A DNA stretch of 64,000 nt from assembly GCA_032718475.1 (NCBI GenBank), contig JAUCBJ010000321.1, positions 30,994 to 94,993 of the forward strand, written 5' to 3'. Position numbers and translations under genes: made by a program. This document shows, in pieces, positions 10,498 through 47,282 of the stretch. The notes under the pieces were generated by a model. The model was not told where the DNA came from. It ran no database searches and saw only the letters and a list, made by a program, of their open reading frames with translations. Positions within the stretch are counted from its first letter, which is position 1; each line of letters begins with the position of its first letter. Source of the stretch: Nemertoderma westbladi (taxonomy: Eukaryota > Animalia > Xenacoelomorpha).

Positions 10498-13400
10498 AAT
10501 TTGTCACTATCTCGCTGCAGAGGTTATGATGTTAATTTGCCACTATCTCGCTACAGGTAATCATGTTAATTTGCCACTATCTTGCTACAGATAATGATGT
10601 TAATTTGCCACTATCTCGCTACAGGTAATAATGTTAATTTGCCACTATCTCGCTGTGGGTAATGATGTTAATTTGCCACTATCTCGCTACAGGTAATGAT
10701 GTTAATTTGCCACTATCTCGCTACAGGTAATCATGTTAATTTGCCACTATCTCGCTACAGGTAATCATGTTAATTTGCCACTATCTTGCTACAGGTAATG
10801 ATGTTAATTTGCCACTATCTCGCTACAGGTAATAATGTTAATTTGCCACTATCTCGCTGTGGGTAATGATGTTAATTTGCCACTATCTCGCTACAGGTAA
10901 TGATGTTAATTTGCCACTATCTCGCTACAGGTAATCATGTTAATTTGCCACTATCTTGCTACAGGTAATCATGTTAATTTGCCACTATCTCGCTACAGGT
11001 AATAATGTTAATTTGCCACTATCTCGCTGTGGGTAATGATGTTAATTTGCCACTATCTCGCTACAGGTAATGATGTTAATTTGCCACTATCTCGCTACCG
11101 GTAATCATGTTAATTTGCCACTATCTCGCTACAGGTAATCATGTTAATTTGCCACTATCTGGGCTACAGGTAATCATGTTAATTTGCCACTATCTCGCTG
11201 TAGGTTATGATGTTAATTTGCCATATCTCGCTACAGGTAATCATGTCAATTTGCCACTATCTCGCTACAGGTAATCATGTTAATTTGCCACTATCTTGCT
11301 ACAGGTAATGATGTTAATTTGACACTATCTCGCTGTGGGTAATGATGTTAATTTGCCACTATCCCGCTACAGTTTATGATGTTTATTTGCCACTATCTTG
11401 CTATTATCTTGCTACGGGTAATGATGTTAATTTTCCACTATCTTGCTACAGGTAATGATGTTAATTTGCCACTATCCCGCTACAGGTTATGATGTTAATT
11501 TGCCACTATCTCGCTGTAGGTAATGATGTTAATTTGCCACTATCTCGCTACAGGTTATGATGTTAATTTGCCACTATCTGGGATACAGGTAATGATGTTA
11601 ATTTGCCACTATCTGGGCTACAGGTAATCAGGTTAATTTGCCACTATCTCGCTACAGGTAATCAGGTTAATTTGCCACTATCTCGCTGTAGGTAATGATG
11701 TTAATTTGCCACTATCTCGCTACAGGTAATCATGTTAATTTGCCACTATCTTGCTATTATCTTGCTACGGGTAATGATGTTAATTTGCCACTATCTTGCT
11801 ACAGGTAATGATGTTAATTTGCCACTATCTCGCTACTGGTAATGATGTTAATTTGCCACCATATCTCTACAGGTTATGATGTTAATTTGCCACTATCCTG
11901 CTACAGGTTATGATGTTAATTTGCCACTATCTTGCTACGGGTAATGATGTTAATTTGCCACTATCTTGCTACAGGTAATGATGTTAATTTGCCACTATCT
12001 CGCTACAGGTAATCATGTTAATTTGCCACCATCTCTCTACAGGTTATGATATTAATTTGCCACTATCTCGCTACAAGTAATAATGATGTTAATTTGCCAC
12101 TATCTCGCTACAGGTAATGATGTTAATTTGCCATTATCTTATTACAGTTTATGATGTTAATTTGCCACTATCTCGCTACAGGTAATAATGATGTTAATTT
12201 GCCACTATCTCGCTACAGGTAATAATGATGTTAATTTGCCACTATCCCACTACAGGTTATGATGTTAATTTGCCACTATCCCGCTACAGGTTATGATGTT
12301 AATTTGTCATTATCTTGCTACAGGTTATGATGTTAATTTGCCACTATCTGGGCTACTGGTAATCATGTTAATTTGCCACTATCTCGCTGTAGGTAATGAT
12401 GTTAATTTGCCACCATCTCTCTACAGGTTATGATGTTAATTTGCCACTATCTCGCTGTAGGTAATGATGTTAATTTGCCACTATCTCGCTACAGGTTATG
12501 ATGTTAATTTGCCACTATCCCGCTACAGGTTATGATGTTAATTTGCCACTATTCCGCTACTGGTTTTGATGTTAATTTGCCACTATCCCGCTACAGGTAA
12601 TAATGATGTTAATTTGCCACTATCTCGCTGTAGGTAATGATGTTAATTTGCCACTATCTCGCTGTAGGTAATGATGTTAATTTGCCACTATCCGCTACAG
12701 GTTATGATGTTAATTTGCCACTATCCCGCTACAGGTTTTGATGTTAATTTGCCTCTATCCCGCTACAGGTAATAATGATGTTAATTTGCCACTATCTTGC
12801 TACAGGTAATGATGTTAATTTGCCACTATCTCGCTACAGGTTATGATGTTAATTTGCCTCTATCCCGCTACAGGTTTTGATGTTAATTTGCCTCTATCCC
12901 GCTACAGGTTTTGATGTTAATTTGCCACTATCCCGCTACAGGTTTTGATGTTAATTTGCCTCTATCCCGCTACAGGTAATAATGATGTTAATTTGCCACT
13001 ATCTTGCTACAGGTAATGATGTTAATTTGCCACTATCCCGCTACAGGATATGATGTTAATTTGCCACTATCCCGCTACAGGTTATGATGTTAATTTGCCA
13101 CTATCCCGCTACAGGTTATGATGTTAATTTGCCACTATCCCGCTACTGGTTTTGATGTTAATTTGCCACTATCCCGCTACAGGTAATAATGATGTTAATT
13201 TGCCACTATCTCGCTGTAGGTAATGATGTTAATTTGCCACTATCTCGCTGTAGGTAATCATGTTAATTTGTCACTATCCCGCTACAGGTTATGATGTTAA
13301 TTTGCCACTATCTCGCTGTAGGTAATGATGTTAATTTGCCACTATCTCGCTGCAGGTAATGATGTTAATTTGCCACTATCCCGCTACAGGTTATGATGTT

Positions 13401-15788
13401 AATTTGCCACTATCCCGCTACAGGTTATGATGTTAATTTGCCACTATCCCGCTACAGGTTTTGATGTTAATTTGCCACTATCCCGCTACAGGTAATAATG
13501 ATGTTAATTTGCCACTATCCCGCTACATGTTATGATGTTAATTTGCCACTATCCCGCTACAGGTTTTGATGTTAATTTGCCACTATCCCGCTACAGGTTA
13601 TAATGATGTTAATTTGCCACTATCCCGCTACAGGTTATGATGTTAATTTGCCACTATCCCGCTACAGGTTTTGATGTTAATTTGCCACTATCCCGCTACA
13701 GGTAATAATGATGTTAATTTGCCACTATCTCGCTGTAGGTAATGATGTTAATTTGCCACTATCTCGCTGTAGGTAATGATGTTAATTTGCCACTATCTCG
13801 CTGTAGGTAATGATGTTAATTTGCCACTATCTCGCTACAGGTTATGATGTTAATTTGCCACTATCCCGCTACAGGTTATGATGTTAATTTGCCACTATCC
13901 CGCTACTGGTTTTGATGTTAATTTGCCACTATCCCGCTACAGGTTATGATGTTAATTTGCCACTATCCCGCTACAGGTTTTGATGTTAATTTGCCACTAT
14001 CCCGCTACAGGTAGTAATGATGTTAATTTGCCACTATCCCGCTACAGGTAATAATGATGTTAATTTGCCACTATCTCGCTGTAGGTAATGATGTTAATTT
14101 GCCACTATCTCGCTGTAGGTACTGATGTTAATTTGCCACTATCCCGCTACAGGTTATGATGTTAATTTGCCACTATCCCGCTACAGGTTTTGATGTTAAT
14201 TTGCCACTATCCCGCTACAGGTAGTAATGATGTTAATTTGCCACTATCTTGCTACAGGTAATGATGTTAATTTGCCACTATCCCGCTACAGGTTATGATG
14301 TTAATTTGTCACTATCCCGCTACAGGTTATGATGTTAATTTGCCACTATCTCGCTGTAGGTAATGATGTTAATTTGCCACTATCTCGCTGCAGGTAATGA
14401 TGTTAATTTGCCACTATCCCGCTACAGGTTATGATGTTAATTTGCCACTATCCCGCTACAGGTAATAATGATGTTAATTTGCCACTATCCCGCTACATGT
14501 TATGATGTTAATTTGCCACTATCCCGCTACAGGTTTTGATGTTAATTTGCCACTATCCCGCTACAGGTTTTGATGTTAATTTGCCACTATCCCGCTACAG
14601 GTAATAATGATGTTAATTTGCCACTATCTTGCTACAGGTAATGATGTTAATTTGCCACTATCCCGCTACAGGTTATGATGTTAATTTGTCACTATCCCGC
14701 TACAGGTTATGATGTTAATTTGCCACTATCTCGCTGTAGGTAATGATGTTAATTTGCCACTATCTCGCTGCAGGTAATGATGTTAATTTGCCACTCTCCC
14801 GCTACAGGTTATTATGTTAATTTGCCACTATCCCGCTACAGGTTATGATGTTAATTTGCCATTATCCCGCTACAGGTTATGATGTTAATTTGCCACTATC
14901 CCGCTACAGGTTATGATGTTAATTTGCCACTATCCCGCTACAGGTAATCATGTTAATTTGCCACTATCTCGCTGCAGGTAATCATGTTAATTTGCCATTA
15001 TCTTGCTACAGGTTATGATGTTAATTTGCCACTATCTCGCTGTAGGTAATGATGTTAATTTGCCACTATCCCGCTACAGGTAATCATGTTAATTTGCCAT
15101 CATTTCTCTACAGGTTATGATGTTAATTTGACACTATCTCGCTGTAGGTAATGATGTTAATTTGCCACTATCTCGCTACAGGTTATGATGTTAATTTGCC
15201 ACTATCTTGCTACAGGTGATCATGTTAATTTGCCACTATCTCGCTACAGGTAATGATGTTAATTTGCCACTATCTCGCTGCAGGTAATCATGTTAATTTG
15301 CCATTATCTTGCTACAGGTTATGATGTTAATTTGCCACTATCTCGCTGTAGGTAATGATGTTAATTTGCCACTATCCCGCTACAGGTAATCATGTTAATT
15401 TGCCATCATTTCTCTACAGGTTATGATGTTAATTTGCCACTATCTCGCTGAAGGTAATGATGTTAATTTGACACTATCCCGCTACAGGTTATGATGTTAA
15501 TTTGCCACTATCTCGCTGTAGGTAATGATGTTAATTTGCCACTATCCCGCTACAGGTAATCATGTTAATTTGCCATCATTTCTCTACAGGTTATGATGTT
15601 AATTTGCCACTATCTCGTTGTAGGTAATGATGTTAATTTGACACTATCCCGCTACAGGTTATCATGTTAATTTGCCACTATCTCTCTACAGGTTATGATG
15701 TTAATTTGCCACTATCTCTCTACAGGTTATGATGTTAATTTGCCACTATCTTGCTACAGGTTATGATGTTAATTTGCCATTGTCTCGC
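10498..15788 (+). repeat. 34-bp minisatellite (~155 copies) built from the ZMYND12 intron 2 / exon 3 junction
   Basis: Unit gt(t/a)at(g/c)atgttaatttgccactatc(t/c)cgctacag. The last partial copy is the start of exon 3 (gttatgatgttaatttgccattgtctcgc). Confidence 0.97.
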
Positions 15789-24243: not shown

Positions 24244-24943
24244 ATATATTACATACAATATGGACTTTAGCGATACAGCAATAAAAATGGATTGATCTGG
24301 TTGGATGATAAACTTCATATTAATCAATTATACAATAAAGATGTTGAAACTCGGTAATAACTGTAGAAAGTATAATGTAACAAAGATCCTTGGAGATAAA
24401 ATCCTCATAACCTGACGACCTAATATTAATTAATTTCGAAAAACTTCGAAACACTCTACATAAAATTATATTAAATACAACAAATTAATAACATTCGAAG
24501 TAATGGTTGGATATAATACAACTAATTAAGTAACTATAAACAAAAAAAAATATAAATACAAATAAGTAATGAACATTAATCATATCAATACATTTTATAG
24601 GTTAATATATAACAGATTTATAGAGAAAATATTAAATTAAAAGGAAAACTCGATTCGGAATATAAATAATTATTACAGGGACACCATGGTACCATGGAAA
24701 CCCTGATGGACACACCAGCAACGGGATAAATGATATTCTAATTAAAATGTATCTAAACAATGATTGTTGAACAATAATTAATTAAAGAAACTAACCTTAG
24801 TCAAATATATGAATTACTTGGAAAAAAATAACACAAAACTATAAATAATTGTTGACGATTAAGAATCTGTTGAATTTATTGGGGTAAATTAGAAAACATT
24901 TAAACTGAAAATATTTAAACAATTGGAACATTTTATAATAAAT

Positions 24944-29557: not shown

Positions 29558-30250
29558 TTAGTTCGAAGCGATGGGGACTGTTCCCTTGGTGATCCTAATG
29601 TCCCCGTAGGGTTCCCTTTGCATCACCTCGATGACAGACTGTTTCTTTAACTGAAGAATCGTGTACAACTTAGCCGCCGCCTGGGAGCGGTTGTTCCGGT
29701 GCGCCAACGTAAAGAAGGACGTCGCCGATGAACCCGCTAACAACGCCGACAACGTCCTCGACATGAAGGCCGTCCGTTTGGAGCAGCGACGCTCATCGAA
29801 CTCCTCCGCGGTCTCTCCCTCCTCCTGCTGCTCCTCCTCGCAGACGGCGGACTCCGGAGCCGGACTCGGTGCTCCGGCCGGACTCGGAACGCCGGCCGGA
29901 CTCGGAACGCCGGCCGACGGATCCGAGTCCCCGTCCGACTCCGAGTCGCCCTCGTCGTAGTAGCCATGGTAACCGCCACCGTCCTCGCTGTCGCTGTCCG
30001 GATGCAGGATGGGGAGGGTGAGGGGCGGCACTCTGAGTTCGGTTTGGCTCGGCTCGGTCGCGCTCGGCTCGGTAGCGACGTCCAGGCGGGGCGACTTGGC
30101 GGGCGGCGGGAGGAGCGAATCGGCTTCCATGACGGCGGGCGGAAGGATTCCGGAGTCGGAACCCCGGATGCCGGAGCCGCAATCGACGCGGAATCCCTCG
30201 ATCGAGTCGGTGGAACGCAGGGATTGGACCGGAGCGAGAACGTTCTCAAC
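29558..30250 (-). CDS. RAD21: Cohesin kleisin subunit RAD21/SCC1, exon 2 (terminal)
   Basis: Acceptor tttccgttttcggtccgCAG|GTTGAG at 30251/30250 is in frame with ORF 29558-30130. The C-terminal winged helix reads FFTLAHRNNRSQAAAKLYTILQLKKQSVIEVMQREPYGDIRITKG. The spliced product is ~662 aa. Confidence 0.88.
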   Translation of the reverse strand, partial: VENVLAPVQSLRSTDSIEGFRVDCGSGIRGSDSGILPPAVMEADSLLPPPAKSPRLDVATEPSATEPSQTELRVPPLTLPILHPDSDSEDGGGYHGYYDEGDSESDGDSDPSAGVPSPAGVPSPAGAPSPAPESAVCEEEQQEEGETAEEFDERRCSKRTAFMSRTLSALLAGSSATSFFTLAHRNNRSQAAAKLYTILQLKKQSVIEVMQREPYGDIRITKGTVPIASN

Positions 30251-32203
30251 CTGCGGACCGAAAACGGAAATGTAGATGAGTAAATAATCAGAGTTTCCGC
30301 CGCCGAATGGATTAATATATACCGGTACCGGATCCGTAATATATTTTTCTACAAATCTTTATCTTATTGCTTAAGATTTGGAACACAACTAGTTCCACTC
30401 ACCGTCGTTGTTACCATGAAGCCGGGATTTTTGAGATTTGGATTTTAAAATATTTTTATATAAAAGCGCTTTAAAAAAGTGACACTTGCGAAATTACAAC
30501 CATCGTGTCGCAGTAATTCTTCACATTGCCCTTAGTTTGTACATATTGGAAAGCTTACGTTGAATACAAAATGTTCTGGAACATTTTGTTTATGTATGCG
30601 CAAGTAAATACGCAATATAGATATTGCATTGTCAGCTCGTAACACGTTCTAGAATTTTGCGTAAAAAAAAATGCCTATATCTCAGCTGTTTCTACATTGT
30701 TACATATTTGGAATCCTGGCAACGAAAGCTTTCTAACGATATAAATAAATCAACTAAGGGTGCAATTCCGCAAGACACTTCTTTAAAACGCTTATAAAAT
30801 TATTTAAAGGCTAAATCGAATACTCCGGGTTCAAGGGGTCCTCGACGGCGAGTTAAGAACTAATTGTACCGGTATTTAAAATATAAGTCTATTATTGTAA
30901 TGATTGTAGAAATACCCCCCAGTAGTAATGGTTACCCCTTTTCGGCGACAGTTTAGTCCAACTTCACACCTTGGGTGTTAAGTAGGTCATTAATTAATTA
31001 AACAATTAATTAATTGGTCGATTAAACAATTAATTAATTGTTTAATCAATCGATTTGTATCAAATAATGTTGCCAAAGGCAATTTAATTTGACACAAATC
31101 AATCAGATAGGGACGCGAGATGAATAAATTGTACTACAGTAGATAAAATATACAACACAATAGGAACCATACAATATAATATACAATACATTTGTATTAT
31201 TTTTGCCATACAGTAGGTAAAGGTAGAATTAAATATAAACATGCGAGCGGGGCCCAAAACATAAATTACCCTCACCCGAAAATAAAGTGGACCAGTTTGG
31301 CCCTGAGTCATCCCTCAATAATCTGCGGTCGTTGGGCTCTTATTAACCGTAGCATGACTAATCCAAACATCGAATCCTATACTGTATGTCAACGCGTGAA
31401 TGGGACCTGCGATAGAGTTTAAATTATTCAAACCTACAGCTGTGGGTGGGGACTGCCTTGGTATGTTGCCTTGATAGCCTTTAGCTTCGTTATCATGTAA
31501 GATTGGAAACCTTCGGTTTGCATCTTACGCGCCAGCATCACCTCAATCGCACATAGGCCAACTACAACCATTAATTACCGCATATGCGAGCGCATATGTT
31601 AATTTAAACCTGCGCGCCTGATCGCACATAATTAAATAAGGCCCTCTTTTAATACATAAGTTATATACAGTTTATCTTCAATTTATTGAATTTGTTTTTA
31701 TTTACAACCCTAATTGTTCTACTGTATTATAATTTAAGTTTTATTATAACAAGCTATATCCTGTTAATCTTATTAATTTTATTTGTACTGAGGTTTTCGA
31801 AGGCGCTGTTTCCAATGGTCCTACTCTCAAAACGATCTAACCTACTGTATAATTAATTACTCAAGTCTGCGAGGTATGCGTAAGTAACAAATCTCGTTTA
31901 CCAGTTTTCCTTAAAAAATATGAAGCTATATTGCTTAAGATTTCTGAGGGGCGAGCCATGAGGTAAGATGTTTGAGACTTTTTTAGATATATTATTACTT
32001 AATTTTGACCCCCCAGTCGATATCTATTACAATATAGGCTATATCTTTTTGCGGAGTCACAGAGTAGTCTGAAGATTCGAGTCTGCTGCTAGAGGGTGAA
32101 ATGTCTCAAAGTAAAAACCATACGGTAGCTATGAACTGGTTACTAGGCAATAATACTACATTTTGTATAGTTAGGCCTATTGCTGATCGAACGAAAACTG
32201 CCC

Positions 32204-32277
32204 TGGTCCATGTGAGGATTGAACCCACGACCTATTGGAGATGTGAATTCAAAGCAACCACTACACCAAGGTGGAAC
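32204..32277 (-). pseudogene. tRNA-like sequence (Val-CAC-like pseudogene or SINE head)
   Basis: The minus strand has A box tggtgtagtgg, loop ttcacat and B box ggttcaatcc, and ends atggacca. Acceptor and anticodon stems are imperfect. Confidence 0.5.
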
Positions 32278-32342
32278 AACGTTTGAATTTGTTCGTTAAC
32301 GTTCGAATTTGTAAGACTCTGATTTAAGACCTGAGGCACTCC

Positions 32343-32612
32343 CCACAACCACAGCCACAGCCACAGCCACAACCACAGCCACAGCCACAGCCACAACCAC
32401 AGCCACAACCACAGCCACAGCCACAGCCACAGCCACAGCCACAGCCACAACCACAGCCACAACCACAGCCACAACCACAGTCACAACCACAGCCACAGCC
32501 ACAACCACAGCCACAGCCACAACCACAGCCACAACCACAGCCACAGCCACAACCACAACCACAACCACAGCCACAGCCACAACCACAGCCACAACCACAG
32601 CCACAGCCACAG
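32343..32612. repeat. (CCACAR)n hexanucleotide microsatellite, ~45 copies
   Basis: Interspersed ccacag and ccacaa units, continuous with the inner end of the right TIR. Confidence 0.95.
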
Positions 32613-33022
32613 CTGTAGGTTTGAATAATTTAAACTCTATCGCAGGTCCCATTCACGCGTTGACATAGACATTCCACGGCTGTAGGCAGGACGTAGGATT
32701 AAGTCGAACCTGTGAGCGACCTTGGGGTCCGATCGGATGGAGGCATTGTCACTTATTTGCTTTGATTCTGGTTGGATCGGTGCAGATGATTTTGACGCAA
32801 TTATTGGCGTCTTCCCCTTACAGAAACCGCGGCGAATAAATTATGTTGTAAATAACTATTTATTTTACAAAAATAAGTAACTATTTTTTTGTCCGACTTG
32901 TTTATCCACATTTTCGAGGAATAGTAGAATGTGGAATAATAATGCACATTCTACAAAGCTGATTGGATAAATAAATATTATATTATCCGCATTTTTGGAA
33001 GATTGAATGGATAATAACTTTT

Positions 33023-36000
33023 ACCTGTAGGAACTGCTGTCTCTGGAACTCTCCTATAAACTCACCTGTAGGAACTGCTGTCTCTGGAACTCCCCTATAA
33101 ACTCACCTGTAGGAACTGCTGTCTCTGGAACTCCCCTAAACTCACCTGTAGGAACTGCTGTCTCTGGAACTCCCCTAAACTCACCTGTAGGAACTGCTCT
33201 CTCTGGAACTCTCCTAAACTCACCTGTAGGAACTGCTGTCTCTGGAACTCTCCTATAAACTCACCTGTAGGAACTGCTGTCTCTGGAACTCCCCTAAACT
33301 CACCTGTAGGAACTGCTGTCTCTGGAACTCTCCTATAAACTCACCTGTAGGAACTGCTGTCTCTGGAACTCCCCTAAACTCACCTGTAGGAACTGCTGTC
33401 TCTGGAACTCTCCTATAAACTCACCTGTAGGAACTGCTGTCTCTGGAACTCTCCTATAAACTCACCTGTAGGAACTGCTGTCTCTGGAACTCTCCTATAA
33501 ACTCACCTGTAGGAACTGCTGTCTCTGGAACTCTCCTATAAACTCACCTGTAGGAACTGCTGTCTCTGGAACTCCCCTAAACTCACCTGTAGGAACTGCT
33601 GTCTCTGGAACTCTCCTATAAACTCACCTGTAGGAACTGCTGTCTCTGGAACTCTCCTATAAACTCACCTGTAGGAACTGCTGTCTCTGGAACTCTCCTA
33701 TAAACTCACCTGTAGGAACTGCTGTCTCTGGAACTCTCCTATAAACTCACCTGTAGGAACTGCTGTCTCTGGAACTCTCCTATAAACTCACCTGTAGGAA
33801 CTGCTGTCTCTGGAGCTCTTCTAAACTCACCTGTAGGAACTGCTGTCTCTGGAGCTCTCCTATAAACTCACCTGTAGGAACTGCTGTCTCTGGAACTCTC
33901 CTATAAACTCACCTGTAGGAACTGCTGTCTCTGGAACTCTCCTATAAACTCACCTGTAGGAACTGCTGTCTCTGGAACTCTCCTAAACTCACCTGTAGGA
34001 ACTGCTGTCTCTGGAACTCTCCTATAAACTCACCTGTAGGAACTGCTGTCTCTGGAACTCTCCTATAAACTCACCTGTAGGAACTGCTGTCTCTGGAACT
34101 CTCCTATAAACTCACCTGTAGGAACTGCTGTCTCTGGAACTCTTCTAAACTCACCTGTAGGAACTGCTGTCTCTGGAACTCTCCTATAAACTCACCTGTA
34201 GGAACTGCTGTCTCTGGAACTCTCCTATAAACTCACCTGTAGGAACTGCTGTCTCTGGAGCTCTTCTAAACTCACCTGTAGGAACTGCTGTCTCTGGAGC
34301 TCTCCTATAAACTCACCTGTAGGAACTGCTGTCTCTGGAGCTCTTCTAAACTCACCTGTAGGAACTGCTGTCTCTGGAGCTCTCCTATAAACTCACCTGT
34401 AGGAACTGCTAGTCTCTGCAACTCTCCTAAACTCACCTGTAGGAACTGCTGTCTCTGGAGCTCTCCTATAAACTCACCTGTAGGAACTGCTGTCTCTGGA
34501 ACTCTCCTATAAACTCACCTGTAGGAACTGCTGTCTCTGGAACTCTCCTATAAACTCACCTGTAGGAACTGCTGTCTCTGGAACTCTCCTAAACTCGCCT
34601 GTAGGAACTGCTGTCTCTGGAACTCTCCTATAAACTCACCTGTAGGAACTGCTGTCTCTGGAACTCTCCTATAAACTCACCTGTAGGAACTGCTGTCTCT
34701 GGAACTCTCCTATAAACTCACCTGTAGGAACTGCTGTCTCTGGAACTCTTCTAAACTCACCTGTAGGAACTGCTGTCTCTGGAACTCTCCTATAAACTCA
34801 CCTGTAGGAACTGCTGTCTCTGGAACTCTCCTATAAACTCACCTGTAGGAACTGCTGTCTCTGGAGCTCTTCTAAACTCACCTGTAGGAACTGCTGTCTC
34901 TGGAGCTCTCCTATAAACTCACCTGTAGGAACTGCTAGTCTCTGCAACTCTCCTAAACTCACCTGTAGGAACTGCTGTCTCTGGAGCTCTCCTATAAACT
35001 CACCTGTAGGAACTGCTGTCTCTGGAACTCTCCTATAAACTCACCTGTAGGAACTGCTGTCTCTGGAACTCTCCTATAAACTCACCTGTAGGAACTGCTG
35101 TCTCTGGAACTCTCCTATAAACTCACCTGTAGGAACTGCTGTCTCTGGAACTCTCCTATAAACTCACCTGTAGGAACTGCTGTCTCTGGAACTCTCCTAT
35201 AAACTCACCTGTAGGAACTGCTGTCTCTGGAACTCTTCTAAACTCACCTGTAGGAACTGCTGTCTCTGGAACTCTCCTATAAACTCACCTGTAGGAACTG
35301 CTGTCTCTGGAACTCTCCTATAAACTCACCTGTAGGAACTGCTGTCTCTGGAACTCCCCTAAACTCACCTGTAGGAACTGCTCTCTCTGGAACTCTCCTA
35401 AACTCACCTGTAGGAACTGCTGTCTCTGGAACTCTCCTATAAACTCACCTGTAGGAACTGCTGTCTCTGGAACTCCCCTAAACTCACCTGTAGGAACTGC
35501 TGTCTCTGGAACTCTCCTATAAACTCACCTGTAGGAACTGCTGTCTCTGGAACTCTCCTAAACTCACCTGTAGGAACTGCTGTCTCTGGAACTCTCCTAT
35601 AAACTCACCTGTAGGAACTGCTGTCTCTGGAACTCTCCTATAAACTCACCTGTAGGAACTGCTGTCTCTGGAACTCTCCTATAAACTCACCTGTAGGAAC
35701 TGCTGTCTCTGGAACTCTTCTAAACTCACCTGTAGGAACTGCTGTCTCTGGAACTCTCCTATAAACTCACCTGTAGGAACTGCTGTCTCTGGAACTCTCC
35801 TATAAACTCACCTGTAGGAACTGCTGTCTCTGGAGCTCTTCTAAACTCACCTGTAGGAACTGCTGTCTCTGGAGCTCTCCTATAAACTCACCTGTAGGAA
35901 CTGCTGTCTCTGGAGCTCTTCTAAACTCACCTGTAGGAACTGCTGTCTCTGGAGCTCTCCTATAAACTCACCTGTAGGAACTGCTAGTCTCTGCAACTCT

Positions 36001-39000
36001 CCTAAACTCACCTGTAGGAACTGCTGTCTCTGGAGCTCTCCTATAAACTCACCTGTAGGAACTGCTGTCTCTGGAACTCTCCTATAAACTCACCTGTAGG
36101 AACTGCTGTCTCTGGAACTCTCCTATAAACTCACCTGTAGGAACTGCTGTCTCTGGAACTCTCCTAAACTCACCTGTAGGAACTGCTGTCTCTGGAACTC
36201 TCCTATAAACTCACCTGTAGGAACTGCTGTCTCTGGAACTCTCCTATAAACTCACCTGTAGGAACTGCTGTCTCTGGAACTCTCCTATAAACTCACCTGT
36301 AGGAACTGCTGTCTCTGGAACTCTTCTAAACTCACCTGTAGGAACTGCTGTCTCTGGAACTCTCCTATAAACTCACCTGTAGGAACTGCTGTCTCTGGAA
36401 CTCTCCTATAAACTCACCTGTAGGAACTGCTGTCTCTGGAGCTCTTCTAAACTCACCTGTAGGAACTGCTGTCTCTGGAGCTCTCCTATAAACTCACCTG
36501 TAGGAACTGCTGTCTCTGGAGCTCTTCTAAACTCACCTGTAGGAACTGCTGTCTCTGGAGCTCTCCTATAAACTCACCTGTAGGAACTGCTGTCTCTGCA
36601 ACTCTCCTAAACTCACCTGTAGGAACTGCTGTCTCTGGAGCTCTCCTATAAACTCACCTGTAGGAACTGCTGTCTCTGGAACTCTCCTATAATCTCACCT
36701 GTAGGAACTGCTGTCTCTGGAACTCTCCTATAAACTCACCTGTAGGAACTGCTGTCTCTGGAACTCTCCTATAAACTCACCTGTAGGAACTGCTGTCTCT
36801 GGAACTCTTCTAAACTCACCTGTAGGAACTGCTGTCTCTGGAACTCTCCTATAAACTCTACTGTAGGAACTGCTCTCTCTGGAACTCTCCTAAACTCACC
36901 TGTAGGAACTGCTGTATCTGGAACTCTCCTATAAACTCACCTGTAGGAACTGCTGTCTCTGCAACTCTCCTAAACTCACCTGTAGGAACTGCTGTCTCTG
37001 GAGCTCTCCTATAAACTCACCTGTAGGAACTGCTGTCTCTGGAACTCTCCTATAATCTCACCTGTAGGAACTGCTGTCTCTGGAACTCTCCTATAAACTC
37101 ACCTGTAGGAACTGCTGTCTCTGGAACTCTCCTATAAACTCACCTGTAGGAACTGCTGTCTCTGGAACTCTTCTAAACTCACCTGTAGGAACTGCTGTCT
37201 CTGGAACTCTCCTATAAACTCACCTGTAGGAACTGCTGTCTCTGCAACTCTCCTAAACTCACCTGTAGGAACTGCTGTCTCTGGAGCTCTCCTATAAACT
37301 CACCTGTAGGAACTGCTGTCTCTGGAACTCTCCTATAATCTCACCTGTAGGAACTGCTGTCTCTGGAACTCTCCTATAAACTCACCTGTAGGAACTGCTG
37401 TCTCTGGAACTCTCCTATAAACTCACCTGTAGGAACTGCTGTCTCTGGAACTCTTCTAAACTCACCTGTAGGAACTGCTGTCTCTGGAACTCTCCTATAA
37501 ACTCTACTGTAGGAACTGCTGTCTCTGCAACTCTCCTAAACTCACCTGTAGGAACTGCTGTCTCTGGAGCTCTCCTATAAACTCACCTGTAGGAACTGCT
37601 GTCTCTGGAACTCTCCTATAATCTCACCTGTAGGAACTGCTGTCTCTGGAACTCTCCTATAAACTCACCTGTAGGAACTGCTGTCTCTGGAACTCTCCTA
37701 TAAACTCACCTGTAGGAACTGCTGTCTCTGGAACTCTTCTAAACTCACCTGTAGGAACTGCTGTCTCTGGAACTCTCTTAAACTCACCTGTAGGAACTGA
37801 TGTCTCTGGAACTCTCCTATAAACTCTACTGTAGGAACTGCTCTCTCTGGAACTCTCCTAAACTCACCTGTAGGAACTGCTGTATCTGGAACTCTCCTAT
37901 AAACTCTACTGTAGGAACTGCTCTCTCTGGAACTCTCCTAAACTCACCTGTAGGAACTGCTGTCTCTGGAACTCTCATATAAACTCACCTGTAGGAACTG
38001 CTGTCTCTGGAACTCTCCTATAATCTCACCTGTAGGAACTGCTGTCTCTGGAACTCTCATATAAACTCACCTGTAGGAACTGCTGTCTCTTGAACTCTCC
38101 TATAAACTCACCTGTAGGAACTGCTGTCTCTGGAACTCTCCTATAAACTCTACTGTAGGAACTGCTGTCTCTGGAACTCTCCTAAACTCACCTGTAGGAA
38201 CTGCTGTCTCTGGAACTCTCATATAAACTCACCTGTAGGAACTGCTGTCTCTTGAACTCTCCTATAAACTCACCTGTAGGAACTGCTGTCTCTGGAACTC
38301 TCCTATAAACTCACCTGTAGGAACTGCTGTCTCTGGAACTCTCCTATAATCTCACCTGTAGGAACTGCTGTCTCTGGAGCTCTCCTATAAACTCACCTGT
38401 AGGAACTGCTGTCTCTGGAACTCTCCTATAATCTCACCTGTAGGAACTGCTGTCTCTGGAACTCTCCTATAAACTCACCTGTAGGAACTGCTGTCTCTGG
38501 AACTCTCCTATAAACTCACCTGTAGGAACTGCTGTCTCTGGAACTCTTCTAAACTCACCTGTAGGAACTGCTGTCTCTGGAACTCTCTTAAACTCACCTG
38601 TAGGAACTGATGTCTCTGGAACTCTCCTATAAACTCTACTGTAGGAACTGCTCTCTCTGGAACTCTCCTAAACTCACCTGTAGGAACTGCTGTATCTGGA
38701 ACTCTCCTATAAACTCTACTGTAGGAACTGCTCTCTCTGGAACTCTCCTAAACTCACCTGTAGGAACTGCTGTCTCTGGAACTCTCATATAAACTCACCT
38801 GTAGGAACTGCTGTCTCTGGAACTCTCCTATAATCTCACCTGTAGGAACTGCTGTCTCTGGAACTCTCATATAAACTCACCTGTAGGAACTGCTGTCTCT
38901 TGAACTCTCCTATAAACTCACCTGTAGGAACTGCTGTCTCTGGAACTCTCCTATAAACTCTACTGTAGGAACTGCTGTCTCTGGAACTCTCCTAAACTCA

Positions 39001-42000
39001 CCTGTAGGAACTGCTGTCTCTGGAACTCTCATATAAACTCACCTGTAGGAACTGCTGTCTCTTGAACTCTCCTATAAACTCACCTGTAGGAACTGCTGTC
39101 TCTGGAACTCTCCTATAAACTCACCTGTAGGAACTGCTGTCTCTGGAACTCTCCTATAAACTCTACTGTAGGAACTGCTGTCTCTGGAACTCTCCTAAAC
39201 TCACCTGTAGGAACTGCTGTCTCTGGAACTCTCCTATAAACTCACCTGTTGGAACTGCTGTCTCTTGAACTCTCATATAAACTCACCTGTAGGAACTGTT
39301 GTCTCTGGAACTCTCCTATAAACTCACCTGTAGGAACTGCTGTCTCTGGAACTCTCCTATAAACTCACCTGTAGGAACTGCTGTCTCTGGAACTCTCCTA
39401 TAATCTCACCTGTAGGAACTGCTGTCTCTGGAACTCTCCTATAAACTCACCTGTAGGAACTGCTGTCTCTGGAACTCTCCTATAAACTCACCTGTAGGAA
39501 CTGCTGTCTCTGGAACTCTTCTAAACTCACCTGTAGGAACTGCTGTCTCTGGAACTCTCTTAAACTCACCTGTAGGAACTGATGTCTCTGGAACTCTCCT
39601 ATAAACTCTACTGTAGGAACTGCTCTCTCTGGAACTCTCCTAAACTCACCTGTAGGAACTGCTGTATCTGGAACTCTCCTATAAACTCTACTGTAGGAAC
39701 TGCTCTCTCTGGAACTCTCCTAAACTCACCTGTAGGAACTGCTGTCTCTGGAACTCTCATATAAACTCACCTGTAGGAACTGCTGTCTCTGGAACTCTCC
39801 TATAATCTCACCTGTAGGAACTGCTGTCTCTGGAACTCTCATATAAACTCACCTGTAGGAACTGCTGTCTCTTGAACTCTCCTATAAACTCACCTGTAGG
39901 AACTGCTGTCTCTGGAACTCTCCTATAAACTCTACTGTAGGAACTGCTGTCTCTGGAACTCTCCTAAACTCACCTGTAGGAACTGCTGTCTCTGGAACTC
40001 TCATATAAACTCACCTGTAGGAACTGCTGTCTCTTGAACTCTCCTATAAACTCACCTGTAGGAACTGCTGTCTCTGGAACTCTCCTATAAACTCACCTGT
40101 AGGAACTGCTGTCTCTGGAACTCTCCTATAATCTCACCTGTAGGAACTGCTGTCTCTGGAGCTCTCCTATAAACTCACCTGTAGGAACTGCTGTCTCTGG
40201 AACTCTCCTATAATCTCACCTGTAGGAACTGCTGTCTCTGGAACTCTCCTATAAACTCACCTGTAGGAACTGCTGTCTCTGGAACTCTCCTATAAACTCA
40301 CCTGTAGGAACTGCTGTCTCTGGAACTCTTCTAAACTCACCTGTAGGAACTGCTGTCTCTGGAACTCTCTTAAACTCACCTGTAGGAACTGATGTCTCTG
40401 GAACTCTCCTATAAACTCTACTGTAGGAACTGCTCTCTCTGGAACTCTCCTAAACTCACCTGTAGGAACTGCTGTATCTGGAACTCTCCTATAAACTCTA
40501 CTGTAGGAACTGCTCTCTCTGGAACTCTCCTAAACTCACCTGTAGGAACTGCTGTCTCTGGAACTCTCATATAAACTCACCTGTAGGAACTGCTGTCTCT
40601 GGAACTCTCCTATAATCTCACCTGTAGGAACTGCTGTCTCTGGAACTCTCATATAAACTCACCTGTAGGAACTGCTGTCTCTTGAACTCTCCTATAAACT
40701 CACCTGTAGGAACTGCTGTCTCTGGAACTCTCCTATAAACTCTACTGTAGGAACTGCTGTCTCTGGAACTCTCCTAAACTCACCTGTAGGAACTGCTGTC
40801 TCTGGAACTCTCATATAAACTCACCTGTAGGAACTGCTGTCTCTTGAACTCTCCTATAAACTCACCTGTAGGAACCGCTGTCTCTGGAACTCTCCTATAA
40901 ACTCACCTGTTGGAACTGCTGTCTCTGGAACTCTCCTATAAACTCTACTGTAGGAACTGCTGTCTCTGGAACTCTCCTAAACTCACCTGTAGGAACTGCT
41001 GTCTCTGGAACTCTCCTATAAACTCACCTGTTGGAACTGCTGTCTCTTGAACTCTCATATAAACTCACCTGTAGGAACTGTTGTCTCTGGAACTCTCCTA
41101 TAAACTCACCTGTAGGAACTGCTGTCTCTGGAACTCTCCTATAAACTCACCTGTAGGAACTGGTCTCTGGAACTCTCCTATAATCTCACCTGTAGGAACT
41201 GCTGTCTCTGGAACTCTCATATAAACTCACCTGTAGGAACTGCTGTCTCTTGAACTCTCCTATAAACTCACCTGTAGGAACTGCTGTCTCTGGAACTCTC
41301 CTATAAACTCTACTGTAGGAACTGCTGTCTCTGGAACTCTCCTAAACTCACCTGTAGGAACTGCTGTCTCTGGAACTCTCCTATAAACTCACCTGTAGGA
41401 ACTGCTGTCTCTGCAACTCTCCTAAACTCACCTGTAGGAACTGCTGTCTCTGGAACTCTCCTATAAACTCACCTGTAGGAACTGCTGTCTCTGGAACTCT
41501 CCTAAACTCACCTGTAGGAACTGCTGTCTCTGGAACTCTCCTATAAACTCACCTGTAGGAACTGCTGTATCTGGAACTCTCCTAAACTCACCTGTAGGAA
41601 CTGCTGTCTCTGGAGCTCTCCTATAAACTCACCTGTTGGAACTGCTGTCTCTGGAACTCTCCAATAAACTCACCTGTAGGAACTGCTGTCTCTGGAACTC
41701 TCCAATAAACTCACCTGTAGGAACTGCTGTCTCTGGAACTCTCCTAAACTCACCTGTAGGAACTGCTGTCTCTGGAACTCTCCTATAAACTCACCTGTAG
41801 GAACTGCTGTCTCTGGAACTCTCCTATAAACTCACATATAGGAACTGCTGTCTCTGGAACTCTCCTAAACTCACCTGTAAGAACTGCTGTCTCTGGAACT
41901 CTCCTATAAACTCACCTGTAGGAACTGCTGTCTCTGGAACTCTCCAATAAACTCACCTGTAGGAACTGCTGTCTCTGGAACTCTCCTATAAACTCACCTG

Positions 42001-44037
42001 TAGGAACTGCTGTCTCTGGAACTCTCCTATAAACTCACCTGTAGGAACTGCTGTCTCTGGAACTCTTCTAAACTCACCTGTAGGAACTGCTGTCTCTGGA
42101 ACTCTCTTAAACTCACCTGTAGGAACTGATGTCTCTGGAACTCTCCTATAAACTCTACTGTAGGAACTGCTCTCTCTGGAACTCTCCTAAACTCACCTGT
42201 AGGAACTGCTGTCTCTGGAACTCTCCTATAAACTCTACTGTAGGAACTGCTCTCTCTGGAACTCTCCTAAACTCACCTGTAGGAACTGCTGTCTCTGGAA
42301 CTCTCATATAAACTCACCTGTAGGAACTGCTGTCTCTGGAACTCTCCTATAATCTCACCTGTAGGAACTGCTGTCTCTGGAACTCTCATATAAACTCACC
42401 TGTAGGAACTGCTGTCTCTTGAACTCTCCTATAAACTCACCTGTAGGAACTGCTGTCTCTTGAACTCTCCTATAAACTCACCTGTAGGAACTGCTGTCTC
42501 TGGAACTCTCCTATAAACTCACCTGTAGGAACTGCTGTCTCTGGAACTCTCCTATAAACTCTACTGTAGGAACTGCTGTCTCTGGAACTCTCCTAAACTC
42601 ACCTGTAGGAACTGCTGTCTCTGGAACTCTCCTATAAACTCACCTGTTGGAACTGCTGTCTCTTGAACTCTCATATAAACTCACCTGTAGGAACTGTTGT
42701 CTCTGGAACTCTCCTATAAACTCACCTGTAGGAACTGCTGTCTCTGGAACTCTCCTATAAACTCACCTGTAGGAACTGCTGTCTCTGGAACTCTCCTATA
42801 ATCTCACCTGTAGGAACTGCTGTCTCTGGAACTCTCATATAAACTCACCTGGAGGAACTGCTGTCTCTTGAACTCTCCTATAAACTCACCTGTAGGAACT
42901 GCTGTCTCTGGAACTCTCCTATAAACTCTACTGTAGGAACTGCTGTCTCTGGAACTCTCCTAAACTCACCTGTAGGAACTGCCGTCTCTGGAACTCTCCT
43001 ATAAACTCACCTGTAGGAACTGCTGTCTCTGCAACTCTCCTAAACTCACCTGTAGGAACTGCTGTCTCTGGAACTCTCCTATAAACTCACCTGTAGGAAC
43101 TGCTGTCTCTGGAACTCTCCTAAACTCACCTGTAGGAACTGCTGTCTCTGGAACTCTCCTATAAACTCACCTGTAGGAACTGCTGTATCTGGAACTCTCC
43201 TAAACTCACCTGTAGGAACTGCTGTCTCTGGAGCTCTCCTATAAACTCACCTGTAGGAACTGCTGTCTCTGGAACTCTCCAATAAACTCACCTGTAGGAA
43301 CTGCTGTCTCTGGAACTCTCCAATAAACTCACCTGTAGGAACTGCTGTCTCTGGAACTCTCCTAAACTCACCTGTAGGAACTGCTGTCTCTGGAACTCTC
43401 CTATAAACTCACCTGTAGGAACTGCTGTCTCTGGAACTCTCCTATAAACTCACATATAGGAACTGCTGTCTCTGGAACTCTCCTAAACTCACCTGTAGGA
43501 ACTGCTGTCTCTGGAACTCTCCTATAAACTCTCCTGTAGGAACTGCTGTCTCTGGAACTCTCCAATAAACTCACCTGTAGGAACTGCTGTCTCTGGAACT
43601 CTCCTAAACTCACCTGTAGGAACTGCTGTCTCTGGAACTCTCCTTTAAACTCACCTGTAGGAACTGCTGTCTCTGGAACTCTCCTATAAACTCACTGTAG
43701 GAACTGCTGTCTCTGGAACTCTCCTAAACTCACCTGTAGGAACTGCTGTCTCTGGAACTCTCCTAAACTCACCTGTAGGAACTGCTGTCTCTGGAACTCT
43801 CCTAAACTCACCTGTAGGAACTGCTGTCTCTGGAACTCTCCTAAACTCACCTGTAGGAACTGCTGTCTCTGGAACTCTCCTAAACTCACCTGTAGGAACT
43901 GCTGTCTCTGGAACTCTCCTTAAACTCACCTGTAGGAACTGCTGTCTCTGGAACTCTCCTAAACTCACCTGTAGGAACTGCTGTCTCTGGAACTCTCCTA
44001 AACTCACCTGTAGGAACTGCTGTCTCTGGAACTCTCT
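33023..44037 (-). repeat. 39/41-bp minisatellite (~270 copies, ~11 kb) built from the RAD21 exon 1 end plus 5' splice site
   Basis: Minus-strand unit gagagttccagagacagcagttcctaCAG|GTGAGTtt(at)ag. The first copy is coding sequence (EFQRQQFLQ). Confidence 0.97.
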
Positions 44038-45303
44038 CTCGGTTTCGCGCTCCTTGTCTTCTCTGTCCATCAACCCAGTCGGTATCCGATGGTGCAGATT
44101 CTTCTGGTAGAACTGCTGGATCCCCAGACTGGAATCCCGTCCTGGAATCGTAAACAACTTCTCTACCCCGCCTACGTCCTTCCAATGCATGAGACGCTTG
44201 GTAGGGGGCGCTAAATCCAGGGTGGACACGATGTCCGAGGTATCCTCTATCTGGGATCGCATCGTCTGTCCGGTGATCTTTATCGCCTCGTCGACGATCA
44301 GCTTTCGTTTCCGTCGGACTTTCGGGACCTCCGTTGACGCCGCGGTTCCCGCGTCCAGCGGTTCCAACGCGAACTCCCCGCCGGGTTTATCCCGTTCTTC
44401 CGTCAGAGTTGAGAGCTCCGGGTGGACAATCGGGGCGTCGGCGGGGATGGCGTAGGAGTCTACGGGTCGGGGCTGTTCCGTGGACTCCCCGGCGGGTCGC
44501 GTGGGCTCCTCCTCCCGCCGCTCCTCCACCTCCGTTACGTCCCGAGCCGGCGTCAACGGAGGCGCGACCAGCACACTCGCCTCTTCTCGCGACTCCTCCA
44601 CGGGTTTAGCCTCACTCATTAGAACCTCCTCGTGTTCCTCGAAGAGTTTCCCCTTGAGGACTCCCCCGAGTATTCCGTCGTCTCCGAACCCCTCATCCCC
44701 AAATCCCGCCGCAGGGGTTCGGGGCTCTTCCAGTAGGAAATCCCGAGAGGCGTCCCGGGACTCCTCCGGAAGCTGGGCCCGGAAGAGTTCCTGTTCCGTG
44801 AGGTGCATGTCCCCGAAGGTGTCCTGCTCCGGAGCGAGCGATATCGTCCCGAGGTCTTCCTTCAACGTGATGTCCTCCACACGCGACTGATTAAGAGAGA
44901 AATGCATCTCCAAATCCTGGAGATCCCCAAGGCCGATCTCGAAAGCGGCGTCGAACTCGCTGAATACGTCCGGAAGGGTTATCTGATTGAGTACCGCCTC
45001 CCGATTCTCCTCTGGCAGATCGACGGCACCGGGTCGGAAGGCCATCTTAATCTTGAGGAAGGCCTCATTGCAGTCGGCGAGCAGGTACTTGGCCTTCCGA
45101 CTGTAGATGCGGACGACGCCCAGCAGTAAATGGCCGCTGGTTCGCAGCGCGAGGTTCACTTTCGGTTCGAGGATGTTGCAAACACTGTCCTCAAGATTAG
45201 TTTCGTAGATTTGATTTTTCGTAAGTTTTTTGTCCCAATGAGCTGCCAACCAAATCTTGGCCAAAGGGCCTTTTTTTGTTAAAATTAAATTGGCGTAAAA
45301 CAT
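44008..45303 (-). CDS. RAD21: Cohesin kleisin subunit RAD21/SCC1, exon 1
   Basis: MFYANLILTKKGPLAKIWLAAHWDKKLTK...LRTSGHLLLGVVRIYSRKAKYLLADCNEAFLKIKMAFRPG (Rad21/Rec8 N-domain), RKRKLIVDE and LDLAPPTKRLMHWKD (PDS5/STAG-binding region). 432 codons to the first donor CAG|GTGAGT at 44008/44007, phase 0. Confidence 0.95.
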
Positions 45304-45596
45304 TTTACTTAGAGCATAGAGCTGTAGAGTTCAGTTTACCGGTAGGAAGTTAGATTGTAGATACTGCAGTACTGAGATAGGCCTATCAACTATCAGCCTA
45401 TGGCCAATGGCAGTATGGGAATACTGGAATACTGGAATATGGAAAAGTTACCGGCTCTGCCGGTGGCGTACAAAGCTGCAAAGCAGAAATGTCTGACTGT
45501 CTGAAGGTTGAACAGTTGAAATAATAATTATATAATACTAATACATGTCAGCTCAGCATGTACCGGCTGACCGGTAACGGTACCGTACTAATGCGA

Positions 45597-46161
45597 CCAG
45601 ACTGGAATCTCTATGTTCAGCACGCCGGAGGTGCGCCGGGCGTAAAATAATTTGCGCCAACCGACACTAAATTTACGCCTACCACAAAACTATGTCCCTA
45701 GCACATATAAAATGTGCGCCAACAAAGAAAGTTTAAAAATTAATATTAATTACCTTATATCGTATTGAATTGAATTGAGTTTATACTTTTTATAGTAAAT
45801 AAGATATTTAGTAGATATACCATATACAAGATTACAAGAATACAAATTGTACACTTCAACAATAACAAAGTGAGAAATAACAGTTTGCTGTAAGAGTTTT
45901 AACAAATTACTATAAAAATACCAACAATAATAACATGGTAACTGGTTGAGTTTGAGTTAATCTGATACATAGCTAGGCATGGACACTTCTCAGATTGAGA
46001 GCCTAGTTGGTCCACAACCTTACTAATTTCTACGCCAGCACTTGCTGACTTGCTTATATGCCTCGGCTGCGCCGAGGCATTAGTTTCTGCGCCGGCCTGC
46101 GCCGGCACTTGCTTCTGTGCGCCAGAGATCTCCCTGAAAGTGCCGAGAGATTCCAGTCTGG
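45597..46161. mobile_element. Non-autonomous DNA transposon with 8-bp TSD (hAT-like)
   Basis: 16-bp perfect TIR ccagactggaatctct / agagattccagtctgg. TSD taatgcga at 45589-45596 and 46162-46169. Subterminal gcgcc repeats. Confidence 0.88.
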
Positions 46162-46964
46162 TAATGCGATGTATGGTTAATGCTTAATGGTTTGAATTGA
46201 CCAGAACGACGTTGTTCGTGCACTGTATTATACTGTTATAACGAACCTGCCTTTAGGTACTGTAGGGTAGTTTTTGTACTAAGTTGGAGGCTGAAAGAAA
46301 TTGGGGATCTATCTATGTGGCGGTGGCGGGAGGGCTTTATTGTTTCTCCACAAAATGGCTCGGCCGCACGAGCATTTAAAGAAAAACTGTGAAACAGGTA
46401 TCGAATGACATGTTCTATAGTTAGTTGGTGAGAAAAAAGTTTGAAAATTTTAGTCCAAAGGGTGCCGAGAAATTCGCACATATTGGCTTTTTGCACAGGT
46501 CCTATGAGGTTTAAAATACGCATTTCACCTGATTTTTAGCGGTTCTACAAGTGGGAACTAATTATTTTACATGGTAAGAATAACTTATATTTATTAAAAA
46601 TTATATTGCTAGATTCCCCATATCGCATTATATCGAAGTCTTTTAATTTAATTCATTTAAGAAATTTATGTTAAGAATGTACATGTTTTTAATTTTAATT
46701 GATTGAAATGATTTATTGATATTTATTGTTGAATTTTCAATGCTGGACACATCTCTCCATTGCCCAGGTAGATTAGCCTTCTTAATTCAGCCGCCTAGCT
46801 AGAACTCCAGCCTTGCTTGCTTCCATCCAATCACAGACTAATAATTACCTACTATTATCTAATGAATAATGTATTGACAATAGATATCATATTGCCGGTA
46901 GGTTCAATGAACTGTGTTTATTACACGAACGGATGAAGTGGTACAGTAGTCAGTCATTAACCCG

Positions 46965-47282
46965 CCAATGTGAAGAATACCATGATTTCACTTTTCAGTC
47001 GACTTTTTATTGGAATTTATTAATTAAATATAATAGTCTGATGCAGACCGGTAGGTCGAAAACGTTTACTATTGTTATCTGTAATTAATATAATAAAGCA
47101 GCTAAAGACCCTCAATATTTTATTTCTATCAACCACACTATGTTACCGCTGGTTATTGGGTTTTATAGCGCTTATTTCTGTCTTATAACTTGTACATATA
47201 CTAATTCGTTTATTGTTTTGGTTAAATTCAACCCTTCTGTAACCTGTGTTTTTGGTGAAAGCCTGGTATTCTTCACATAGGG
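46965..47282. mobile_element. MITE-like element (copy 2 of the 7648-7932 family)
   Basis: atgtgaagaatacca.gatttcacttttc.gtcgactttttattggaattt ... gtgaaagcctggtattcttcacat is shared with copy 1. Confidence 0.6.

What the first reader, a model, noticed from the sequence alone, without database searches (positions are those of the whole stretch)
33016..44037. RAD21: ~270 tandem copies of the exon-1 end and its GTGAGT donor over 11 kb
Seen: each unit is a 29-nt exon copy followed by GTGAGTTT(AT)AG, resembling a 10-12-nt GT..AG micro-intron, so each repeat has a strong donor and two AG sites. Use of distal donors would bring in frameshifts and TAG stops. The most distal copy has a different donor (CAG|GTAAAA at 33025/33024), possibly the ancestral intron start. 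Known: RAD21 is essential, so correct splicing should be efficient if this is the functional copy. Inference: such an array could bind large amounts of U1 snRNP, tune RAD21 output through NMD, or be removed stepwise.
Basis: partly seen in the sequence, partly recalled or inferred. Interest (0 to 1): 0.85.

Follow-up and report, generated by a model that had tools for sequence, protein, structure and literature searches.

The report
Giant splice-donor minisatellite in RAD21
The last 29 bases of the first exon of a cohesin (RAD21) gene, with the splice signal behind them, stand 273 times in a row over 11 kb, yet the one spliced contig seen joins the exons at the first signal, so this is likely a harmless but unusually large example of a repeat type already known from lancelet and human genes.

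Summary
Confirmed: 273 copies of the 29-nt end of RAD21 exon 1, 249 followed by GT, fill 80% of the gene's single 13,757-nt intron. The head-to-tail junction is present at high depth in three DNA runs from two studies. One 812-nt contig of an RNA-like run joins exon 1 to exon 2 at the first donor, and 16 of 16 listed coding variants are synonymous, so the gene is likely functional. The array is a junction-spanning ('mirage') minisatellite like human F7/CBS and lancelet Adh3/globins, where the authentic site is used. I found no sign of function: donors mutate like the rest of the unit, the repeated AGs are poor acceptors, and structure does not mask them. Five long arrays make up 42% of the window, and neighbouring ZMYND12 has an acceptor-spanning one. 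The scan has noted this kind many times in other genomes, with up to 67 copies among those shown; only the size is new here. Low-level use of distal donors could not be measured.

The parts
44008..45303 (-). RAD21 exon 1, coding part (432 codons); RNA-like contig begins about 45340
   Evidence: ORF; PF04825 E 1e-40; X4 records 24 and 25
44008..44036 (-). Authentic 29-nt exon end that is the template of the repeat; encodes E424-F-Q-R427-Q-Q-F-L-Q432, a candidate separase ExxR site
44002..44007 (-). First (authentic) donor GTGAGT, the one used in the spliced contig
33025..44007 (-). 272 intronic units of 39-41 nt (10-12 nt intron start + 29-nt exon copy); 248 distal GT donors
43684..43686 (-). 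First in-frame stop (TAG, codon 540) on read-through into the array
37600..40865 (-). Higher-order duplication: a run of 37 units starting at 40865 recurs identically 44 units on, starting at 39083 (lower bound approximate)
33019..33024 (-). Distal boundary: last exon copy followed by GTAAAA, a weaker donor-like site, then unique intron
   Evidence: U1 duplex -8.3 against -12.2 kcal/mol
30251..33024 (-). Part of the intron outside the array (holds a 271-nt hexamer microsatellite at 32343-32613 and dispersed repeats), ending in a pyrimidine-rich acceptor
29558..30250 (-). RAD21 exon 2, coding part to the stop; joined in phase 0, giving 662 aa
   Evidence: PF04824 E 4e-13; X4 records 17 and 18
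10498..15788 (+). Companion array: 34-nt unit spanning the acceptor of the last ZMYND12 exon, about 150 copies

Best explanation
This is a donor-spanning minisatellite: 273 tandem copies of the RAD21 exon-1 end and splice donor, likely made by one local duplication followed by slippage and unequal exchange, in which the first donor is used in the one spliced contig seen and the other 248 likely stay nearly silent and leave with the intron. Shown: the anatomy, the tandem junction in independent DNA runs, the exon 1-exon 2 join at 44008/30250. Inferred: the origin by duplication and block amplification; that choice of the first site follows the upstream-first rule described for human F7 (early commitment of the site nearest the exon body); that the array is a tolerated passenger of an array-rich genome. 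It survives because it grew into the intron, behind the working donor.
For: One 812-nt contig of run X4 (depth 142.5) lies on 44006-44618 and on 30050-30253, and its loose end matches 44011-44040, the exon's own upstream context and not a repeat spacer. 16 of 16 listed coding variants are synonymous against 0.24 expected, P about 1e-10. Higher-order blocks of up to 37 units and 35 unit variants are typical of tandem turnover. Substitutions are not depleted in the donor (4 distinct in 6 sites; 14 in 26 sites of the exon copy), and 24 of 273 copies have lost GT. Five long arrays cover 26,683 of 64,000 bases, three of them outside recognised genes. Precedent: F7 IVS7, CBS, 6-16, LMNB2, PDGF (PMC1557585) and lancelet mirages (PMC3087553; PMC3902484).
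Against: The splicing evidence is one contig from one run; the run is labelled 'DNA?' (guessed) and is read as RNA by inference; contigs drop rare variants, so leakage to distal donors is not excluded. In human CBS and 6-16 the next two pseudo-sites are also used (PMC1557585 Introduction), and here the next two are in frame. The mutation test has little power (23 distinct substitutions). 249 of 273 copies keep GT and 230 keep a site predicted to pair well with U1 (-12.2 kcal/mol), so a passive effect on U1 or on splicing speed is possible. The published arrays I read about have at most 25 pseudo-sites, so the rule is extrapolated tenfold.
Confidence: 0.8

Rival explanations
1. Length-dependent rheostat: the array diverts a share of transcripts to distal donors or binds U1 snRNP, so that array length would tune RAD21 dose through NMD.
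For: 248 distal GT donors, 229 identical to the used one; 240 of 249 lie more than 55 nt behind the in-frame TAG and would be classical NMD targets (the 55-nt rule is recalled), so leakage would be invisible in steady-state contigs. Distal donors are predicted as open as the used one. Joint depth over flank depth differs between samples (about 68 against 29), a weak hint of length variation.
Against: No distal-donor product seen; no protection of the donor from mutation; a similar array sits at an unrelated neighbour gene and three more outside genes; in F7, pseudo-sites do not compete (PMC1557585).
Confidence: 0.09
2. Recursive (stepwise) removal: each CAG|GT unit boundary would act as acceptor and then as donor, ratcheting through the array and giving the same final mRNA.
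For: Every intact boundary is a juxtaposed AG|GT; the final mRNA would look the same; tandem AGGT sites are spliced in human UBC (PMC10809524, abstract); the intron is long (13,757 nt).
Against: The unit's terminal CAG has 41% pyrimidine upstream and 8 other AGs within 40 nt; the spacer AG 53% and 8; two ordinary acceptors of the window have 71-76% and none. The CAG is simply the last codon of the exon. A 10-12-nt spacer is below known animal intron sizes (recalled).
Confidence: 0.05
3. Assembly inflation: a real but much shorter array was over-expanded in this assembly.
For: No read or contig spanning the array was seen; depth ratios of about 68 and 29 are below the 83-112 copies of the corresponding 31-mers in the window.
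Against: The tandem junction stands at depth 1328, 613 and 561 in three DNA runs from two studies against 19-21 on the unique flank in two of them; 35 unit variants in nested blocks are not what collapse or inflation gives.
Confidence: 0.05
4. The intron itself was gained by tandem duplication of an exonic AG|GT segment (Rogers model), the array being its founding sequence.
For: Both the unit and exon 2 begin with GT and GAG follows within one base; the genes of this window have few introns (RAD21 1, ZMYND12 2); the mechanism is in print (PMC4974935, search listing only; PMC2812944, passages).
Against: The intron has 2.8 kb of non-array sequence with its own pyrimidine-rich acceptor unlike the exon end; beyond GT-GAG the spacer does not match the start of exon 2.
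Confidence: 0.04

Closest known systems
Human F7 IVS7 37-bp VNTR, and CBS IVS13, 6-16 intron 2, LMNB2, PDGF intron 4 (PMC1557585; abstract, Introduction and Discussion read)
   Same: First unit spans the exon-intron boundary; identical donors follow in the intron; the most upstream donor is used.
   Different: 5-9, 15-20, 25, 10-15 and 16-18 copies there against 273 here; the unit here is mostly exon (29 of 39-41 nt; F7: 4 of 37); array is 80% of the only intron of a cohesin gene.
Lancelet 'mirage' minisatellites: Adh3, globins BflGb6/BflGb9, troponin C, PGBD5 (PMC3087553 and PMC3902484, passages read; the original Adh3 paper was not held)
   Same: Tandem duplication of exon-intron boundaries at both donors and acceptors, many but not all copies keep AG/GT, regular splicing apparently intact, homogenised interior with diverged boundaries; here also two neighbouring genes carry one each.
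   Different: 3-6 units for BflGb6 against 273 and about 150 here; length instability is shown there, only hinted here.
Drosophila ratchet points / recursive splice sites (PMC8605326, passages read) and UBC dual-specific splice sites (PMC10809524, abstract read)
   Same: Juxtaposed AG|GT; in UBC in a tandem array.
   Different: Acceptor half is poor here; no intermediates or variable-unit mRNA seen; most units break the frame, unlike UBC monomers.

Membership tests
Junction-spanning ('mirage') minisatellite | Head-to-tail minisatellite unit of roughly 10-160 bp | tested here: met
   39-41-nt units, 272.8 copies
Junction-spanning ('mirage') minisatellite | Terminal unit contains the authentic exon-intron boundary | tested here: met
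   First unit = coding end of exon 1 plus the donor used in the X4 contig
Junction-spanning ('mirage') minisatellite | Copies lie in the intron; many but not all keep the splice signal | tested here: met
   249 of 273 keep GT
Junction-spanning ('mirage') minisatellite | Regular mRNA is still made from the authentic site | tested here: met
   One contig, one run; minor products not measurable
Junction-spanning ('mirage') minisatellite | Length instability between alleles | tested here: inconclusive
   Joint/flank depth about 68 in X1 and 29 in X2; contig depth is no copy number
Junction-spanning ('mirage') minisatellite | Concerted evolution inside the array | tested here: met
   Mean 1.4 differences to consensus; repeated blocks of 12-37 units
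Recursive splice sites (ratchet points) | Juxtaposed acceptor and donor, AG|GT | tested here: met
Recursive splice sites (ratchet points) | Acceptor half looks like a real 3' splice site (pyrimidine tract, no competing AG; criterion recalled) | tested here: not met
   41% pyrimidine and 8 AGs against 71-76% and 0
Recursive splice sites (ratchet points) | Splicing intermediates or lariats at the site | not testable with these tools
   Only contigs were available
Dual-specific splice-site arrays (UBC type) | In-frame coding repeats kept in variable number in mRNA | tested here: not met
   2 of 248 distal donors in frame and stop-free; the contig seen has no extra unit
Intron gained by tandem duplication | Intron start matches the downstream exon start and intron end matches the upstream exon end | tested here: not met
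   Only GT-GAG and the final CAG are shared
Intron gained by tandem duplication | Intron absent in relatives | not testable with these tools
   No genome of this organism or of animal relatives held
RAD21 (mitotic alpha-kleisin), functional copy | N- and C-terminal kleisin domains and STAG-binding segment in one intact frame, purifying selection | tested here: met
   16 of 16 listed variants synonymous

The most novel reading that the evidence does not exclude
In this animal, splice junctions seed giant minisatellites as a genome-wide habit, the spliceosome picks the site next to the exon body at both ends (first of 249 donors in RAD21, last of about 150 acceptors in ZMYND12), and allele length sets a measurable leak into NMD or into in-frame RAD21 forms with extra separase-type ExxR motifs, so that repeat length tunes cohesin dose.
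Probability: 0.08. Interest if true: 0.75.

Novelty: new member of a known kind. Interest (0 to 1): 0.3.

Why it matters
As a class it is known and, on present evidence, without function. Its value is as an extreme natural test: all 249 donors are transcribed before the acceptor appears 13.8 kb downstream, 229 are identical to the used one, and yet the first is chosen. With the mirror-image acceptor array in ZMYND12 next door, a single long-read cDNA set could separate 5'-to-3' scanning (predicts first donor and first acceptor) from exon-proximal choice (first donor, last acceptor), and measure how far splice-site choice leaks as decoy number grows into the hundreds.

Tried and rejected
No genome is held for this window, so no genome-wide census or paralogue search was possible. 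The run search listed no holder on record as RNA; that blank is no evidence. No X4 contig besides the spliced one was laid on the repeat unit (first-bin depth 119.9 = 142.5 x 85/101), but contigs show presence, not absence, so this is not counted against leakage. X3 has no cover on most of exon 1 and could not be normalised. Structural masking of distal donors rejected: the used donor is no more open than the other 229 in two of three window sizes (share more open 0.66, 0.11, 0.32, which corrects, where a fuzzy match at 44103 was taken as the first donor), and 201 nt of array fold worse than all 200 shuffles (z +2.97). Micro-intron removal rejected: it would leave 29-nt copies in the mRNA. Selection to keep or to destroy donors: no signal, low power. 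No close relative of the proteins was found (RAD21 hits 41-51% identical where 90% or more of the query is covered; ZMYND12 at most 62%), so the organism is only placed as an animal and intron positions could not be compared. Paper searches for a VNTR-donor link to expression gave 0 hits, a search for genome-wide or hundreds-copy junction arrays gave 1 unrelated review; two wanted papers were not held. No supplements were read. The scan's notes held nothing for this genome or this protein.
Full report
Observation. The array is as described. Tandem Repeats Finder gives 33023-44036, 272.8 copies of a 41-nt period, score 19348. Parsed on the minus strand, there are 273 copies of the last 29 nt of RAD21 exon 1, each but the last followed by a 10-12-nt spacer; 272 intronic units fall into 35 variants (185 of 41 nt, 82 of 39, 5 of 40). 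249 of 273 junctions keep GT: 230 CAG|GTGAGT, 16 CAG|GTGAGA, 2 TAT|GTGAGT and the distal CAG|GTAAAA at 33024. 164 of 272 intronic copies equal the real exon end.

The gene. Exon 1 (45303-44008) carries PF04825 and exon 2 (30250-29558) PF04824; the STAG-binding segment aligns with human RAD21 316-401. Joined in phase 0 they give 662 aa without internal stop. The intron is 13,757 nt, 80% of it array. No close relative was found: RAD21 hits covering 90% or more of exon 1 are 41-51% identical, so I place the organism only as an animal; its genome is not held.

Is the array real? Four of 8 listed runs hold exon 1. In DNA-like runs X1 and X2 (two studies) the unique exon-1 contigs begin exactly at 44007, where the graph enters the array, and a joint going back from 44036 to 43999, the head-to-tail junction of the 41-nt unit, has depth 1328 (X1), 613 (X2) and 561 (X3, same sample as X2) against 19.4 and 21.2 on the flank in X1 and X2. 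The ratios, about 68 and 29, are of the order of the 83-112 copies of such 31-mers in the window, but the tool warns that contig depth is no copy number. X1 and X2 differ from the window at several places, so they are likely other individuals. The 11-kb length is not spanned by any read I could see.

Which donor is used? Run X4 is labelled 'DNA?' (guessed) but behaves as RNA: its cover stops 37 nt upstream of the ATG and at the acceptor where X1 and X2 go on, and a high-copy repeat at 46919-47000 is only about 15 times deeper than exon 1, against 2000-2900 times in X1 and X2. One X4 contig of 812 nt, depth 142.5, lies with letters 200-812 on 44006-44618 and with letters 1-204 on 30050-30253; the five shared letters are the CAG and GT common to both ends. 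Its loose end matches 44011-44040, the exon's own context, whereas a distal donor would show spacer letters at the last four places. So the first donor is used. This is one contig from one run; rare forms are dropped from such contigs. An intronless genomic copy would look similar but does not explain the low repeat depth.

Is it the functional copy? All 16 coding differences listed are third-position and synonymous (expected share 0.24, P about 1e-10). One search left 4 further differences unlisted, so the count is of those shown.

What would distal donors do? Donors 2 and 3 add 13 and 26 residues in frame; 5 shift the frame into a TGA just inside the last exon; 241 lie behind a TAG at codon 540, 240 of them more than 55 nt behind it. 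The used donor and the common repeat donor are the same sequence (U1 duplex -12.2 kcal/mol with a recalled U1 end; distal site -8.3), so strength cannot explain the choice. Nor can structure: predicted opening of the used donor is inside the range of the other 229, and the array folds worse than 200 of 200 shuffles. Position is what is left, as in F7, where pseudo-sites are functional but the most upstream is selected (PMC1557585; abstract, Introduction, Discussion read).

Signs of function? None found. Distinct substitutions per site: 4 in 6 donor sites, 3 in 6 spacer sites, 14 in 26 exon-copy sites, 2 in the last 3; low power, but no protection. A block of 37 units recurs 44 units on, with further blocks of 12-19, as expected from unequal exchange. 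The AGs of the unit are poor acceptors (41-53% pyrimidine, 8 AGs in 40 nt) next to the ordinary acceptors of RAD21 and ZMYND12 intron 1 (76% and 71%, none), which argues against recursive splicing (ratchet points: PMC8605326, passages) though only nascent RNA can exclude it.

Context. Five arrays of 2.4-11 kb cover 41.7% of the window. One is the mirror image of this one: the last intron of ZMYND12 ends in about 150 copies of a 34-nt unit made of the acceptor and the first 29 nt of the last exon. Of 432 spliced models, the one using the last acceptor scored best against an HMM of 120 homologues (535.8 bits; next 526.8), and 14 of 120 homologues hit that exon weakly; no RNA was laid on it. The other three arrays lie between the 3' ends of the two genes, and the flank of one is part of a repeat found again at 19231-19331.

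Comparison. Donor-spanning minisatellites are described for human F7, CBS, 6-16, LMNB2 and PDGF with 5-25 copies, and as 'mirages' at donors and acceptors in lancelet Adh3, globins, troponin C and PGBD5, where regular splicing appears intact (PMC3087553, passages; PMC3902484, one passage). The array meets five of six features tested for that class, the sixth (length instability) being inconclusive. The scan's own notes list 16 findings in at least 12 genomes and 30 in at least 6 for such words; among the 16 shown the largest have about 56 and 67 copies. These are unchecked notes and give no support; they only show the kind is common. I found no paper on a junction array with hundreds of copies, in a library that lacks most subscription papers.

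A side point. The amplified exon piece encodes E424-F-Q-R427. It aligns with an ExxR in 10 of 11 chosen deuterostome and spiralian homologues but in only 28 of all 120; 54 of 120 have an ExxR 25-55 residues behind the STAG-binding end against 8% of linker windows. Human separase site 2 is R427 with E424 at P4 (PMC12609080, passages); the local alignment with human RAD21 ends before it, so equivalence is inferred. Donors 2 and 3 would add one or two more such motifs without the upstream acidic residue; no use of them was seen.

Verdict. A real, very large member of a known class, likely neutral (0.8). New only in size and in the donor/acceptor pair in neighbouring genes. Interest 0.3.

Noticed in passing
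window 10498-15788 (+): Acceptor-spanning array of about 150 x 34 nt at the end of the last ZMYND12 intron; unit = acceptor + first 29 nt of the last exon, the same exon length as in the RAD21 unit; many boundaries read AG|GTAAT. Only the last acceptor gives the homologous C-terminus. No RNA tested.
   Followed up: partly
window 16261-18651, 20145-24250, 24946-28826: Three more long minisatellites (49, 35, 41 nt) between the 3' ends of ZMYND12 and RAD21. All three units hold AGGT on the + strand; chance per unit 0.11-0.15 on one strand, 0.21-0.28 on either, noticed after the fact. Two begin close behind a gene end; the X4 contig of the RAD21 3' UTR would reach about 28814, the edge of one.
   Followed up: partly
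window 45591-46163: 573-nt element with 16-nt terminal inverted repeats about 290 nt upstream of the RAD21 start codon, skipped in contigs of X1 and X2: a polymorphic MITE-like insertion near the promoter.
   Followed up: partly
window 44008-44036 (-): The amplified exon piece encodes a candidate separase site (E424-x-x-R427), moderately conserved.
   Followed up: partly
window 2352-3068, 8961-15987, 29558-45303: Genes here have few introns: a mitochondrial ribosomal protein gene (PF05047) in one ORF, ZMYND12 with 2, RAD21 with 1; vertebrate orthologues have many more (recalled).
   Followed up: no
window 18652-19033: Inverted-repeat-bounded element (TAA at both ends) directly at the right end of the 49-nt array, MITE-like.
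   Followed up: no
window 48296-51877 (-), 54719-57076 (+), 61206-63455 (+): Long retroelement-like ORFs (1193, 785, 749 aa from stop to stop), by eye a Bel/Pao-type LTR element, a LINE and a Penelope-like element (labels recalled, not searched).
   Followed up: no
window 44104-44118 (-): A near copy (13 of 15 letters by the fuzzy match) of the last 15 nt of exon 1 lies 96 nt upstream inside the exon, without GT behind it.
   Followed up: no
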